Source: a virus (lineage: Duplodnaviria > Caudoviricetes). From it: DNA of 64,000 nucleotides. The notes under the pieces are model-generated. The model searched no databases. It saw nothing but the letters and a program-made list of their open reading frames with translations, and was not told the DNA's origin. Location: positions 1,620 to 65,619 of IMG/VR virus record IMGVR_UViG_3300029288_000012. One strand, 5' to 3'. The position numbers and the translations under genes were made by a program. Positions 7,193-19,020 of this stretch are shown piece after piece. Numbering within the stretch: position 1 is the stretch's first letter; each line of letters begins with the position of its first letter.

Positions 7193-7849
7193 TCACCACC
7201 ATCTGAAACCGAAAGCCTTCATCATGTCGAAGGCGAAGTCGCCGCGACCGGTCTTGACCATCTTCGCCCGTTCCTGCTTGAAGGCCTCAGGATTGATACG
7301 AGCGGTGACGCCGGTCTCGATAGCATTTCGGATATCGTCCTGGCTATCAGCAGCGATCACGAAGCCGAAGCGAACAGCGAAGCGCACAGCCCGCACAGCC
7401 CGCATCGGGTCAGCTACGATAGTCGAGAAGCCCTGGCAGAAGCGAATGACGCCGTTCTGCATGTCAGAGATGGCCTGGGGGTGAGCAACGATTTCGCCGG
7501 TTTCGCAGTTCATTGCAACGGCGTTGATCGTGATGTCGCGAGCGGTCATGTCAGCTTCAATCGTTTCGCCGCGAAAGGTCGCGACTTCGATCGCCTGGTG
7601 AGCAACGATCACGCGGATAATCCCGAATTTCTTGCCGCCGGTGTCGCGAGTCTGTCCGGGGAAGATCGCTTCAATCTGTTCGATCGTGGCGTTCGTGGCG
7701 ATATCGATATCGTTCGCTTCAGTACCGAAGAAGACAGTATCACGAACGAAACCGCCTACGATGAAAGCCTGGAAGCCGGCTTCAACGATAGGGGCGGCTA
7801 CTGCCTGGGCGATGAATGGGACGTGGTTTGTTTGGTTCGTGTTCGTCAT
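7193..7849 (-). CDS. Class II tRNA nucleotidyltransferase / poly(A) polymerase family protein, truncated
   Basis: VGGFVRD, NDIDIAT (DxD), EVATFR, RDITINA and DPMRAVRAVRF motifs. Confidence 0.85.
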   Translation of the reverse strand: MTNTNQTNHVPFIAQAVAAPIVEAGFQAFIVGGFVRDTVFFGTEANDIDIATNATIEQIEAIFPGQTRDTGGKKFGIIRVIVAHQAIEVATFRGETIEADMTARDITINAVAMNCETGEIVAHPQAISDMQNGVIRFCQGFSTIVADPMRAVRAVRFAVRFGFVIAADSQDDIRNAIETGVTARINPEAFKQERAKMVKTGRGDFAFDMMKAFGFRWW

Positions 7850-12355: not shown

Positions 12356-12370
12356 GAATACATACAGGAG

Positions 12371-12458
12371 AACAGGAGCGGCGACCGGGATAGACCGGAA
12401 ACGCGAGCGCAGAAGTAGCAGCCGTACGCCGAATCACGAAGGAAGCCGCTCCCCTGTT
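12371..12458 (+). ncRNA. Candidate structured leader RNA
   Basis: AACAGGAGCGGC pairs with GCCGCTCCCCTGTT and encloses small hairpins; lies between promoter and RBS. Confidence 0.4.
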
Positions 12459-12484
12459 ACACTCTCAAAACAGGAGCCAAAGCA

Positions 12485-13987: not shown

Positions 13988-14046
13988 AAACTCTAATCTT
14001 TCTCTAATCTTCAGCTATTGACACGCTATAAGAATAGGGATATACT
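13988..14046 (+). promoter_or_regulatory. Cassette promoter TTGACA-17-TATACT with TCTAATCT x2
   Basis: -35 at 14018-14023, -10 at 14041-14046. Confidence 0.8.
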
Positions 14047-14081
14047 AGGACTATAAGCAAGTGAGCAAGCAGCACCTTTAC

Positions 14082-14272
14082 AGTCGAGAACTTTTATCAG
14101 CTCCGCTTAGCCTATCAGGAGCCACCGCCTTGACCCAAATGACACCGGCGACAAGAGAGGTTCGAGTCCTCTCCGGCAATAGATAAACACGGTCATCGAA
14201 TCAAGTCGGCCTGAAGGTTATGAGGTAAAGAGAGGTTCGAGTCCTCTCCGGGGTTGATAAAAGTTCTCGACT
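14082..14272 (+). ncRNA. Candidate tRNA-mimic RNA with two identical T-arms closed by an 18-bp stem
   Basis: AGTCGAGAACTTTTATCA (14082-14099) is the exact reverse complement of 14255-14272; GAGAGG-TTCGAGT-CCTCTC at 14155-14173 and 14230-14248. Confidence 0.65.
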
Positions 14273-14316
14273 AAAAAATAAAGTCAGTCAAAGAGAACAA
14301 CAGGAGCCAGAACAAA

Positions 14317-14673
14317 ATGACAACCCATTCGACCGTCCATCACTTCGACCAAGAGACCAACAAAGAGAACGTCCGCGTTTGCGCCAGTGCGCTCGGCGGT
14401 ATCGAGAGATTGATCGTTATGTGCGGCGCTAAACTGTTTGTTGCCATCAACGGCGGCATTCGGTTCGCCCTGCCAAAGAGCCACGGCAACAAGTGGAATA
14501 AGGTTGAAATCTTCATCAACGATAAAGACGAAATCAGCGTCAACTTCTTCAACCTGGACCGCGACGGTAAGATAGTCGCTTCGGCCGAGCATGACGGTAT
14601 TCCATTCGAGAACGTGATGGACCTGTTCGAACGCGAAACCGGTCTCTTCTTGACCTTCAGCAACCGTCACTAA
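14317..14673 (+). CDS. Hypothetical protein
   Basis: RBS AGGAG, highly biased codon usage. Confidence 0.8.
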   Translation: MTTHSTVHHFDQETNKENVRVCASALGGIERLIVMCGAKLFVAINGGIRFALPKSHGNKWNKVEIFINDKDEISVNFFNLDRDGKIVASAEHDGIPFENVMDLFERETGLFLTFSNRH

Positions 14674-14685
14674 AATCAGCCTGAC

Positions 14686-14719
14686 TTGCTAGGGCGCTTT
14701 TGCAAAAGCGCCCTAGCAA
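14686..14719. terminator. 34-bp perfect palindrome, terminator-like
   Basis: TTGCTAGGGCGCTTTTGCAAAAGCGCCCTAGCAA. Confidence 0.55.
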
Positions 14720-14748
14720 TATTGCAATCAAAAGAAAGAGAGCGAGAC

Positions 14749-15372
14749 ATGCCCAATAAATTCAAGCCGATCAACTTCAGCCAACTTCAGAGCGAAGACG
14801 GATTCAGCGAAGACGAATTCGATCCCCTGGATGACGAATTAGACGAAGACGAATTCGAGGATGATGAATTTGAGGATGATGAATTCGAAGAAGAAATCTA
14901 CCCAGCTCAGCGCAAGCAAGCCAGGCCACAGCCGCGCCGGTCTTCGTGGGATCGCCCTGCAAGCCGTGAACGGTTTATCAGCCCGCGTGACCTGCCACCG
15001 TTCGACAACAGCCGCCCTTCTCACCGTGACCGGTTTGGACGGTCACGCCCGGCCGGTTTGCCGGGTATGCCAACGCTGCCAGGCCTCGGCAGCTACAACC
15101 GCCCTGCAAAGCGCATCGGCTTATTCGGTAAACGGTCTTCGCCTTCTTCCGGCTACCCATACAGCAGCCGGCGAGAAAACGACCTGCAAGCCGGCGTCTT
15201 CAAGGCGATCGCCTTCGTTCTATGCGGTTCCATGCTTATCGCTGGAGCCTGGGGCATTATAAGCGGTTCAACCGGTCCAATCGGTTTAGACGCTATTGCC
15301 GGGATCGCCTTCCTCGCCCTGCTTGTCGCTTTTACGGTTTGGGCTTCTGGCCAGAAACGGACGTATCGATAA
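14749..15372 (+). CDS. Membrane protein with acidic and Arg/Ser-rich disordered N-terminus
   Basis: DE-rich run (EDEF repeats), then two C-terminal TM helices. Confidence 0.7.
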   Translation: MPNKFKPINFSQLQSEDGFSEDEFDPLDDELDEDEFEDDEFEDDEFEEEIYPAQRKQARPQPRRSSWDRPASRERFISPRDLPPFDNSRPSHRDRFGRSRPAGLPGMPTLPGLGSYNRPAKRIGLFGKRSSPSSGYPYSSRRENDLQAGVFKAIAFVLCGSMLIAGAWGIISGSTGPIGLDAIAGIAFLALLVAFTVWASGQKRTYR

Positions 15373-16062
15373 ATGAATAACGCTACTATGAGAAAAGCAT
15401 TCCTCGCCCTCGCTGCAATCTTTATCGCCCTCACGATCTGGCGCGTCGGGGATTATGTTTCAGCCGTGATGAAGGTCCCGCCTATCATCGCCTACGCATA
15501 CAGTATAGCGGTCGCCGGGTTGATTTATACCTCAGCTTATTGGAGCCGGGTAAACCTCACAGCGAACGGAGACGAAACACACCGAGCCGCCCAGGTGCGC
15601 AAAACAGCGACCGTGATTCTCGCCGCTTCAGTCGTGTTTGACACCGCCTTCAATACATTCGAATCCTTCAGGGTCGCGCAGCCCGTGACCGTGATAGAGA
15701 TCGTGTCCGTTCTTCTCTATGGTATCAGCCCGACCCTTGCCGCAGCCGCTGGTGGCCTCGCCACCGCTTATATCGATCGCCTTCCTACACCGCCAAAGCC
15801 GGCGGCTACCCGACGTAAGGCGCTTATAAGCAAAGCCTACGACGGCCTTCTTGCAAAGCTACTCGGCGGCCTTGCAAGAATCGCAGATCACGAGACAGAG
15901 CCAATCGAGCCAGAATCGCCTGGACCTAGCGCGCCAGCTACAGCAGCAGAGCCAACAAAGCCCTATCGCTGCAAGTGTGGAGCAACGTTCGAATCATTGA
16001 AAGCCCGTTCTGGCCATATCGGCGGCAAAGGCGGCGCAAGCAAAGGTCACGAAGTCGCCTGA
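15373..16062 (+). CDS. Multi-pass membrane protein with C-terminal C2H2-like Zn finger
   Basis: About four TM helices; YRCKCGATFESLKARSGH. Confidence 0.7.
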   Translation: MNNATMRKAFLALAAIFIALTIWRVGDYVSAVMKVPPIIAYAYSIAVAGLIYTSAYWSRVNLTANGDETHRAAQVRKTATVILAASVVFDTAFNTFESFRVAQPVTVIEIVSVLLYGISPTLAAAAGGLATAYIDRLPTPPKPAATRRKALISKAYDGLLAKLLGGLARIADHETEPIEPESPGPSAPATAAEPTKPYRCKCGATFESLKARSGHIGGKGGASKGHEVA

Positions 16063-16100
16063 AGTCGCCTGAAGTCGCCTGAAGTCGCCTGAAGTCACCT
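16051..16100 (+). repeat. Tandem decamer (GAAGTCGCCT)x5
   Basis: Four exact copies plus GAAGTCACCT, directly before a -35 box. Confidence 0.95.
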
Positions 16101-18772: not shown

Positions 18773-18778
18773 AGGGGC

Positions 18779-18990
18779 ATAAGAGAACGAGAAGCGGAAC
18801 GAAGGCGAAATAGACTTCGCCACCTGACACCAGGAACCGACCCCCCGGATAGATAATACTACCGGCAGAAACCAAAGGCCCATACCGGGTACAAAGTTCG
18901 GACCGCCCTCTTGCTAGCCACGACCCTGCATTAGGACTATCGGGCAGCAGAAAGAAAAGACCTTGATCGGACGCGATCAAGGTCTTTTTG
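18779..18990 (+). ncRNA. Candidate stand-alone small RNA, about 210 nt
   Basis: Promoter upstream, terminator downstream, no ATG on the + strand between them, several hairpins. Confidence 0.55.
18955..18990 (+). terminator. Intrinsic terminator
   Basis: AAAAGACCTTGATCG-GACG-CGATCAAGGTCTTTTT. Confidence 0.8.
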
Positions 18991-19020
18991 ATTCTCGGAT
19001 ATGGAGCCAGGGGCCAGGCG

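What the first reader, a model, noticed from the sequence alone, without database searches (positions are those of the whole stretch)
14082..14272. Promoter-driven RNA with two identical tRNA T-arms clamped by a perfect 18-bp stem
Seen: a 191-nt non-coding element whose ends are exact reverse complements (14082-14099 / 14255-14272). It carries a 24-nt direct repeat (14153-14176, 14228-14251). Each copy folds as GAGAGG-TTCGAGT-CCTCTC, a canonical TPsiC arm, stacked on a short CCG/CGG helix like a minihelix. There is no anticodon arm and no CCA. It sits between a cassette promoter and the usual AGTCAGTCA...AGGAGCCAG leader, as if inserted. Known: T-loop/elbow mimicry occurs in tmRNA, bacterial Y RNAs and viral tRNA-like structures, and long stems in phage early mRNA are RNase III sites. 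Inference: an excised bivalent tRNA decoy, e.g. against tRNA-cleaving defences or T-arm-binding enzymes, and a possible substrate for the phage nucleotidyltransferase. Alternative: a MITE-like insertion with 18-bp terminal inverted repeats (no target-site duplication seen).
Basis: partly seen in the sequence, partly recalled or inferred. Interest (0 to 1): 0.85.

Follow-up and report, generated by a model that had tools for sequence, protein, structure and literature searches.

The report
Optional two-T-arm RNA in phage leader
A sewage/sludge phage carries, in the untranslated leader of one early gene, a tightly folded 191-base RNA-like module with two identical copies of the tRNA "T-arm"; near-identical phages lack it, it belongs to no catalogued RNA family, and its job is unproven.

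Summary
There is an exact 18-nt inverted repeat (14082-99 / 14255-72), and as RNA the stem extends to 24 bp. There are two identical 24-nt repeats, each a GAGAGG-TTCGAGT-CCTCTC hairpin. The fold is strong (-79 kcal/mol, z = -6).

New findings:
- It is a real presence/absence polymorphism. Three related contigs carry it. Four contigs with a 98%-identical downstream gene have only the standard short leader. One sludge run holds both forms.
- The inserted unit is about 220 nt, longer than the repeat-bounded 191 nt, and has no target duplication.
- Five of six variant sites fall in the 29 unstructured flank bases and one in the 191-nt core, at a predicted bulge (p = 1.6e-4).
- There is no match in Rfam, to tRNA or tmRNA, in phage or plasmid records, or as a MITE family. 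The complete 65.6-kb genome has one copy.
- The genome has no tRNA genes, integrase or Ro60, but it has a truncated tRNA nucleotidyltransferase.

Best reading (0.45): a tRNA-derived RNA module, co-transcribed with the early gene and probably released at the long stem. The decoy role is untested.

The scan has noted similar double-T-arm RNAs in other phages (e1-5829650, e1-5406138), but not this sequence.

The parts
14018..14046 (+). Cassette promoter (TTGACA, 17 nt, TATACT). The inferred start is near A14053. The promoter is preceded by two TCTAATCT boxes (13992-14012).
   Evidence: 11 of 12 match; family of about 11 such promoters; this exact version is unique in the window. It is identical in all 7 related sequences. 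The transcription start is inferred, not mapped.
14061..14280 (+). Inserted unit relative to empty-site relatives, about 220 nt. It comprises a 21-nt left linker, the 191-nt folded core and an A-rich right linker of about 8 nt.
   Evidence: Alignment of filled (window, L004, L005) and empty (L006-L009) alleles. A contig in run X2 joins 14060 to 14299 with 14 other letters between.
14082..14105 (+). P1, 5' strand: the 18-nt exact inverted repeat plus GCUCCG.
14108..14143 (+). P2 arm, 5' strand. This is a long imperfect helix, and it contains an RBS-like CAGGAGCCA at 14116-14124.
   Evidence: MFE and centroid, (24 pairs, mean probability 0.90).
14153..14176 (+). Direct repeat copy 1. T-arm 1 is the hairpin 14155-14173 (loop TTCGAGT 14161-14167), near the tip of P2.
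14192..14220 (+). P2 arm, 3' strand. The only substitution seen in the core (T14206A in L005) falls on its predicted unpaired bulge.
14228..14251 (+). Direct repeat copy 2. T-arm 2 is the hairpin 14230-14248. It is flush against P1, so the 6-bp T-stem plus the first 6 bp of P1 make a 12-bp stack.
14249..14272 (+). P1, 3' strand: CGGGGU plus the 18-nt exact inverted repeat.
14273..14316 (+). A-rich single-stranded trailer, followed by the standard cassette leader AAGTCAGTCA and the RBS AGGAG (14302-14306). The whole stretch is predicted unpaired.
14317..14673 (+). Downstream early gene, 118 aa, function unknown (phrog_9437). It is present with and without the element.

Best explanation
The element is a tRNA-derived structured RNA module carried as optional cargo in the 5' leader of an early phage transcript.

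It is transcribed from the cassette promoter at 14018-14046 together with the 118-aa gene. It folds on its own into a closed three-way junction with these parts:
- a 24-bp closing helix (P1);
- a long arm (P2) whose tip region carries T-arm 1;
- T-arm 2, stacked directly on P1, which mimics the acceptor/T-arm half of a tRNA.

The gene's ribosome-binding site stays unpaired. I therefore think the module is not a switch for that gene. I read it as an RNA in its own right, released from the mRNA by host nucleases. RNase III would cut the 24-bp 'processing stalk', and/or RNase E would cut the A-rich trailer. Once the leader-trailer duplex is opened, RNase P or RNase Z could act at the 12-bp acceptor-like/T-stem stack. 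The product would display two identical T-arm hairpins to factors that recognise tRNA T-arms.

Shown:
- the sequence anatomy;
- promoter context and orientation;
- the insertion polymorphism;
- excess conservation of the folded core;
- absence from known families.

Inferred:
- transcription;
- folding in vivo;
- processing;
- any trans-acting role.
For: - Fold much stronger than shuffles, with high pair probabilities for all four helices.
- In the full leader fold the element is self-contained and the RBS stays open.
- The T-loop motif lies on the same strand as the strong promoter, with no terminator in between.
- Both 24-nt T-arm copies are identical with sharp edges. Ungapped flank identity is at chance level: 4 of 15 and 6 of 20.
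- Across independent assemblies and runs, 5 of 6 variant sites in the 220-nt inserted unit lie in the 29 unstructured linker bases. The single core variant is at a predicted bulge (Fisher p = 1.6e-4).
- The core is unchanged on gene backgrounds that differ by 13-19% in the adjacent CDS.
- RNase P needs only an acceptor-stem/T-stem/T-loop hairpin (PMC11143913; PMC4919913).
- A separate phage RNA family with three T-arms, closed by an acceptor-like stem flush with the 3'-most T-arm, shows compensatory changes. Multi-T-arm RNAs under selection therefore exist in phages.
- The phage has no tRNA genes but has a tRNA-nucleotidyltransferase fragment.
Against: - No transcript, processed end or modification was observed.
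- No diverged homologue exists, so no base pair is supported by covariation.
- The reverse strand folds almost as well (-76.1 kcal/mol), and G.U counts do not favour the + strand.
- High identity of the core is also matched by some neighbouring blocks between window and L004. Part of the conservation may therefore reflect recent recombination.
- Close relatives do without the element. In one sample the empty form is the deeper one.
- The paired leader and trailer and the missing CCA make it a poor direct RNase P substrate.
Confidence: 0.45

Rival explanations
1. It is a cis-acting leader structure only. The big stable fold, or RNase III cleavage of its 24-bp stem, sets the 5' end, stability or translation level of the downstream 118-aa gene's mRNA. 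This would resemble RNase III sites in T7 and lambda early leaders, or structural obstacles to 5'-end-dependent decay. The T-arms would be incidental building material.
For: - It lies inside a 5' UTR, 44 nt before the start codon.
- The 24-bp helix is of RNase III-substrate size.
- No terminator separates it from the gene.
- The central part of the downstream gene is fast-evolving, so changes in expression level could matter.
Against: - The RBS is not touched by the fold.
- The same gene works with the short leader in relatives.
- A plain hairpin would suffice for this role. That leaves two identical canonical T-arms and a 143-nt interior unexplained.
Confidence: 0.2
2. It is a neutral hitch-hiker. 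A fragment derived from tRNA genes or a tRNA-like gene of another phage was recombined into the leader during cassette shuffling and has no function. Its uniformity would reflect recent spread by recombination at the conserved promoter and leader sequences.
For: - It shows presence/absence among near-identical phages, and its distribution does not follow the CDS tree.
- The leader motif is duplicated on both sides: AAGTGAGCAAG upstream and AAGTCAGTCA downstream.
- The genome is built of recombining promoter cassettes.
- No homologues occur elsewhere.
Against: - Variants avoid the folded core.
- A decaying tRNA remnant would not be expected to keep a perfect 18-bp leader-trailer duplex, two identical T-arms and a fold with z = -6.
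- No donor tRNA gene could be found.
Confidence: 0.2
3. It acts at the DNA level. It could be a MITE-like transposable element with 18-bp terminal inverted repeats, or a pair of palindromic protein-binding sites (operators, iterons or an att-like site) that only resemble T-arms.
For: - It has perfect 18-bp terminal inverted repeats.
- The two identical 24-bp sites are 75 bp apart.
- Both strands fold about equally well.
Against: - The genome holds a single copy.
- The 18-mer gives only 12 scattered single hits, none paired, in the genome collection.
- There is no target-site duplication, and the indel is 29 nt larger than the repeat-bounded unit.
- There is no integrase or resolvase in the complete genome.
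- The loop and closing pair match the T-arm consensus exactly and lie in the transcribed orientation.
Confidence: 0.1

Closest known systems
Bacterial and phage Y RNAs of the YrlA type (Chen et al. 2014, PMC4201824)
   Same: - A long helix formed by the 5' and 3' ends closes a tRNA-like module with a canonical T-arm.
- Some members are phage-encoded.
- M. smegmatis YrlA is cut by RNase P and receives CCA.
   Different: - The phage has no Ro60/TROVE gene.
- There is no Rfam match.
- I could not read a D-arm or the GNCGAA motif in the sequence.
- It has two T-arms instead of one.
- It is embedded in an mRNA leader.
tRNA-like stable RNAs of phages T4 (species 1 and 2) and T5 (RNA1, RNA2). This rests on my own recollection and on a lead from earlier scan note e1-5406138; the catalogue of T-even tRNA-like molecules is cited in PMC11143913.
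   Same: - They are phage-encoded, non-decoding RNAs built from tRNA parts.
- Their function is unknown.
- They are processed by tRNA enzymes.
   Different: - Those RNAs sit inside tRNA gene clusters, whereas this phage has no tRNA gene.
- There is no sequence match to any phage record.
Three-T-arm RNA family found here in high-GC viral contigs (L024, L026, L028-L034)
   Same: - It has several canonical T-arm hairpins in one RNA of about 150 nt.
- A closing stem is flush with the 3'-most T-arm.
- It sits between a promoter or hairpin and a gene.
- It is not in Rfam.
   Different: - Its closing stem is only 6-8 bp.
- It has three different T-arms rather than two identical ones.
- It shares no sequence with this element beyond the T-arm used as the search bait, so it is an analogue and not a shown homologue.
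C4 antisense RNA of phages P1 and P7, and mascRNA from MALAT1. C4 is from my own recollection; mascRNA is cited in PMC4919913.
   Same: A small RNA with a tRNA-like feature is cut out of the front or end of a longer transcript by tRNA-processing enzymes.
   Different: - No antisense target was found here.
- Processing is not shown.
Correia-type MITEs that are co-transcribed and cut by RNase III (my own recollection)
   Same: Terminal inverted repeats form a long RNA hairpin inside mRNA leaders.
   Different: There is a single copy, no target duplication, no family in other genomes, and T-arm content.

Membership tests
tRNA (Rfam RF00005 / ARAGORN) | Cloverleaf with D-arm, anticodon arm, T-arm and 7-bp acceptor stem | tested here: not met
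   ARAGORN gives 0 genes. Rfam gives no tRNA hit even at E up to 10. A relaxed ARAGORN call with an 86-nt 'intron' is noise: 228 such calls in the window against about 167 per shuffled window. Only the T-arm consensus is met.
tmRNA | tRNA-like domain plus tag reading frame and pseudoknots | tested here: not met
   ARAGORN and Rfam find none.
Y RNA / YrlA | Encoded next to a Ro60 (TROVE) gene | tested here: not met
   No TROVE match in the complete 65.6-kb genome.
Y RNA / YrlA | Match to the family model; D-arm and GNCGAA motif (PMC4201824) | tested here: not met
   No Rfam match. The motif and D-arm could not be read in the sequence.
MITE | Terminal inverted repeats | tested here: met
   Exact 18-bp repeats.
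MITE | Target-site duplication, with insertion boundaries at the repeat ends | tested here: not met
   Empty-site alleles show that the indel spans about 14061-14280, not 14082-14272. The flanks CCTTTAC and AAAAAAT are unrelated.
MITE | Multiple copies in the same or other genomes | tested here: not met
   The genome holds a single copy. There are 12 unpaired hits in genome contigs and none in plasmids or phages.
RNase III processing stalk | About two turns of uninterrupted duplex RNA formed by sequences flanking the released RNA | tested here: met
   A 24-bp helix with mean pair probability 0.98. The size criterion is from established knowledge.
RNase III processing stalk | Cleavage by RNase III | not testable with these tools
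   Needs RNA end mapping in wild-type and rnc cells, or an in vitro assay.
RNase P model substrate | T-loop on a 12-bp T-stem/acceptor-stem stack | tested here: met
   A 6-bp T-stem 2 plus the 6-bp GCUCCG/CGGGGU, contiguous. The criterion is from PMC11143913 and PMC4919913.
RNase P model substrate | Single-stranded 5' leader and 3' RCCA | tested here: not met
   The leader and trailer are paired for 18 more bp, and there is no CCA.
Phage attP / tRNA-targeting integration site | Integrase encoded by the element or phage | tested here: not met
   No tyrosine or serine recombinase in the complete genome.

The most novel reading that the evidence does not exclude
The early transcript delivers an excisable RNA with two T-arms. 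This RNA would act in trans as a sponge or decoy for a factor that recognises tRNA T-arms, such as a tRNA-targeting defence nuclease, a tRNA-end-modifying toxin, TruB/TrmA or RNase P. It might also be the dedicated substrate or partner of the phage's truncated tRNA nucleotidyltransferase. That would make it an RNA-based counter-defence of a new kind, gained and lost as a cassette.
Probability: 0.1. Interest if true: 0.85.

Novelty: new variant of a known kind. Interest (0 to 1): 0.5.

Why it matters
Phage small RNAs built from tRNA parts have been known since T4 and T5, but none has an assigned function. This example has several advantages for study:
- It is compact and sits behind a strong early promoter.
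- Natural with/without variants of otherwise near-identical phages exist.
- The phage has no tRNA genes but keeps half of a tRNA nucleotidyltransferase.

Together these make the function of T-arm mimics directly testable by comparing filled and empty alleles. With the three-T-arm family found in passing and the earlier scan notes, it also suggests that multi-T-arm RNAs are a recurrent and uncatalogued phage invention.

Tried and rejected
- **Rfam:** searches at gathering and permissive thresholds gave nothing relevant. The only hit was H19_2 at E = 0.07 on 14098-14149, which I treat as chance.
- **Relaxed ARAGORN:** it drew a 'tRNA-Lys with an 86-nt intron' at 14099-14256, but calls of this kind occur at the same rate in shuffled sequence. 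Rejected.
- **Searches for relatives:**
  - The phage collection gave no match by DNA, with a 2.5-kb query and with the element alone.
  - Plasmids gave no match.
  - IMG/VR gave no match by the 24-mer, by a double-T-arm pattern, or by the three neighbouring proteins.
  - JGI metagenomes gave no match by two patterns.
  - The helicase has only a 98% cluster and one 32% relative in the large protein collection. There are therefore no intermediate relatives, and no covariation test was possible.
- **Expression:** no RNA holder is listed among the sequencing runs. The four runs laid are contigs, so they say nothing about expression or RNA ends.
- **Antisense targets:** only chance-level matches in the window.
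- **Similarity to the two other structured leader/ncRNA regions** (12357-12470 and 18773-18955): chance level.
- **Strand choice from G.U pairs:** uninformative, with 3 on + and 6 on -.
- **Extended homology of the two repeat copies beyond 24 nt:** ungapped identity is at chance level. A gapped TnGATAAA match is too weak to use.
- **41-aa ORF at 14061-14186:** it has no ribosome-binding site and I judged it spurious.
- **CCA-enzyme link in other contigs:** the contigs that share the T-arm have no PF01743 gene.
- **Other RNA enzymes:** the phage encodes no RNase III, RtcB or RNA ligase.
- **Protein atlas for the 118-aa gene:** only hypothetical phage proteins.

Full report
**1. What is there**

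The window is nearly the whole of a complete 65.6-kb virus record with direct terminal repeats. Its + strand early region (about 8-28 kb) is built of cassettes. About eleven near-consensus sigma-70 promoters are present.

The flagged cassette has the promoter TTGACA-17-TATACT at 14018-14046. Other cassettes reach the ATG in about 45 nt. This one takes 264 nt.

- The 18-nt ends are exact reverse complements.
- The 24-nt repeat occurs twice.
- Each copy is a 6-bp/7-nt hairpin whose loop and closing pair match the tRNA T-arm consensus.

As RNA the closing helix runs on for six more pairs (GCUCCG/CGGGGU, two G.U) to 24 bp. T-arm 2 sits on it without a gap, so the T-stem plus these six pairs make the 12-bp stack of a tRNA acceptor/T-arm domain.

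The remaining sequence forms a long imperfect arm (P2, 14108-14143 / 14192-14220), with T-arm 1 near its tip. The fold is -79 kcal/mol (z = -6), and all four helices have ensemble pair probabilities of 0.90-0.98. In a fold of the whole leader, the element closes on itself and the gene's RBS stays free.

**2. It belongs to no known family**

- ARAGORN finds no tRNA or tmRNA in the whole window.
- Rfam 15 finds nothing at gathering score in the window, and nothing meaningful at E up to 10 around the element.
- A relaxed ARAGORN run draws a tRNA with an 86-nt 'intron' at 14099-14256. The same settings give 228 calls in the window and about 167 in shuffled copies, so this is noise.
- There is no Ro60 gene for a Y RNA and no integrase or resolvase for an att site.
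- The phage encodes no RNase III, RtcB or RNA ligase.

**3. Relatives show a presence/absence polymorphism**

The phage has no relatives in the isolate-phage collection or IMG/VR that I could reach. The 118-aa protein, however, has three close clusters in the large protein collection, and their contigs are decisive.

- L004 (syntenic over 6.8 kb) and L005 carry the element.
- L006-L009, from four different samples, have the identical promoter followed directly by a short standard leader and the same gene.
- In sludge run X2, one contig carries the element (depth 6.5) and another joins 14060 to 14299 with 14 leader letters between (depth 22.5), so both forms co-occur.

The unit that differs is about 14061-14280. 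It is 21 nt longer on the left and about 8 nt longer on the right than the repeat-bounded 191 nt, and no duplicated target flanks it. The left linker repeats the leader motif in degenerate form (AAGTGAGCAAG against AAGTCAGTCA). This suggests that recombination within the cassette system, not transposition, put the module there or removed it.

The state does not follow the gene tree. The window's CDS is 98.0% identical to the empty alleles but only 87.1% and 80.7% identical to the two other filled alleles.

**4. Is it constrained?**

No diverged copy exists, so covariation cannot be tested. The distribution of the few variants is still informative. The data are three assemblies and four laid runs. 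Within the 220-nt inserted unit, five variant sites lie in the 29 linker bases:
- A14067G;
- T14079G;
- a 3-nt deletion near 14068;
- an extra A after 14272;
- T14279C.

Only one variant, T14206A, lies in the 191-nt core, and it falls on a predicted bulge (Fisher p = 1.6e-4). The linkers share the core's history, so recent spread alone does not explain the contrast.

Two caveats apply. The counts are small. Some neighbouring blocks between window and L004 are also 99-100% identical.

The two T-arm copies are identical over exactly 24 nt, and identity drops to chance level at both edges. That is more like a repeated functional module than a decaying duplication.

**5. DNA-level alternatives**

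- The genome holds one copy.
- The 18-mer gives only 12 scattered, unpaired hits across one genome for each of 185,579 species. My rough estimate is that about as many would occur by chance.
- Nothing turns up in plasmids or phages.
- The missing target duplication and the mismatch between the indel and the repeat ends also count against a MITE, so I consider one unlikely.
- An operator or iteron reading cannot be excluded, because the reverse strand folds nearly as well and G.U counts are uninformative. It would, however, leave the exact T-arm consensus in the transcribed orientation as coincidence.

**6. How it most likely works**

I favour, at 0.45, an RNA module co-transcribed with the early gene and then separated from it.

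The 24-bp helix formed by leader and trailer is the classic layout of an RNase III processing stalk. The A-rich single strand just after it is a plausible RNase E site. What remains presents a T-loop on a 12-bp stack. That is all RNase P needs in model substrates and is the kind of domain CCA-adding enzymes bind. M. smegmatis YrlA shows that such a mimic can be cut by RNase P and given CCA in vivo.

All of this is inference.

The rival readings are:
- a purely cis-acting leader structure (0.2);
- a neutral recombined fragment (0.2);
- a DNA-level element (0.1).

**7. Context found in passing**

I searched IMG/VR for the 20-nt T-arm. One hit was an ordinary tRNA-Lys and four were non-tRNA contexts. 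Two of those led to a family of about ten high-GC viral loci with three T-arm hairpins in about 150 nt. A 6-8-bp stem closes them, flush with the last T-arm, and they lie between a promoter or hairpin and a gene. The family is not in Rfam and shows compensatory changes in 14 of 37 predicted pairs.

This family is an analogue, not a shown relative. With earlier scan notes on double-T-arm RNAs in other phages (e1-5829650, e1-5406138, not rechecked here), it suggests that multi-T-arm RNAs recur in phages.

**8. Verdict**

I class the element as a new variant of the loosely defined kind 'phage tRNA-like non-decoding RNA'. Its function is unproven, but the natural filled and empty alleles make it testable.

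Noticed in passing
L024:6150-6320 (- strand), L026:296-470, also L028-L034: A family of about ten high-GC viral loci encodes an RNA of about 150 nt with three canonical T-arm hairpins, closed by a 6-8-bp acceptor-like stem. There is no Rfam or ARAGORN hit. Compensatory changes occur in the closing stem, two T-arms and an interleaved hairpin. Some members lie next to tRNA genes; L026 lies just upstream of an ORF that looked TerD-like by eye.
   Followed up: partly
L025:1815-1920; L023:13560-13650 (- strand): In L025 a tRNA-like gene inside a tRNA array has a second T-arm-like hairpin in place of the anticodon arm. L023 has a tRNA-like RNA with a GGAAGG/CCTTCC acceptor and an ACC tail that ARAGORN does not call.
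   Followed up: no
window 14375-14574: The middle of the 118-aa gene is only 71-75% identical between window and L004, while flanking DNA is 92-100% identical. This hypervariable patch suggests diversifying selection or allele swapping. The protein matches only phrog_9437, of unknown function.
   Followed up: partly
window 18779-18992: This cassette has a promoter, no ORF and a strong terminator. Its RNA folds at -78.6 kcal/mol (z = -6.4). Its similarity to the 14-kb element is at chance level.
   Followed up: partly
window 12357-12470: Another unusually long cassette leader (about 128 nt). By eye, a long-range closing stem (CAGGAGCGGC / GCCGCTCC) encloses about 70 nt. It was not folded or compared with relatives.
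   Followed up: no
window 7193-7849 (- strand): This 218-aa protein matches only positions 3-200 of the 392-position phage tRNA nucleotidyltransferase profile (head domain). It occurs in a phage with no tRNA gene.
   Followed up: partly
window 16051-16100: GAAGTCGCCT is repeated five times in tandem (10-nt unit, four exact copies and one with a single mismatch) at the end of the gene 15373-16062, just before a promoter-like palindrome.
   Followed up: no
window 14794-14894: A 15-nt periodic repeat (GAAGACGAATTCGA-like) lies inside ORF 14686-15372. It would presumably encode an acidic Asp/Glu-rich repeat; I did not translate it.
   Followed up: no
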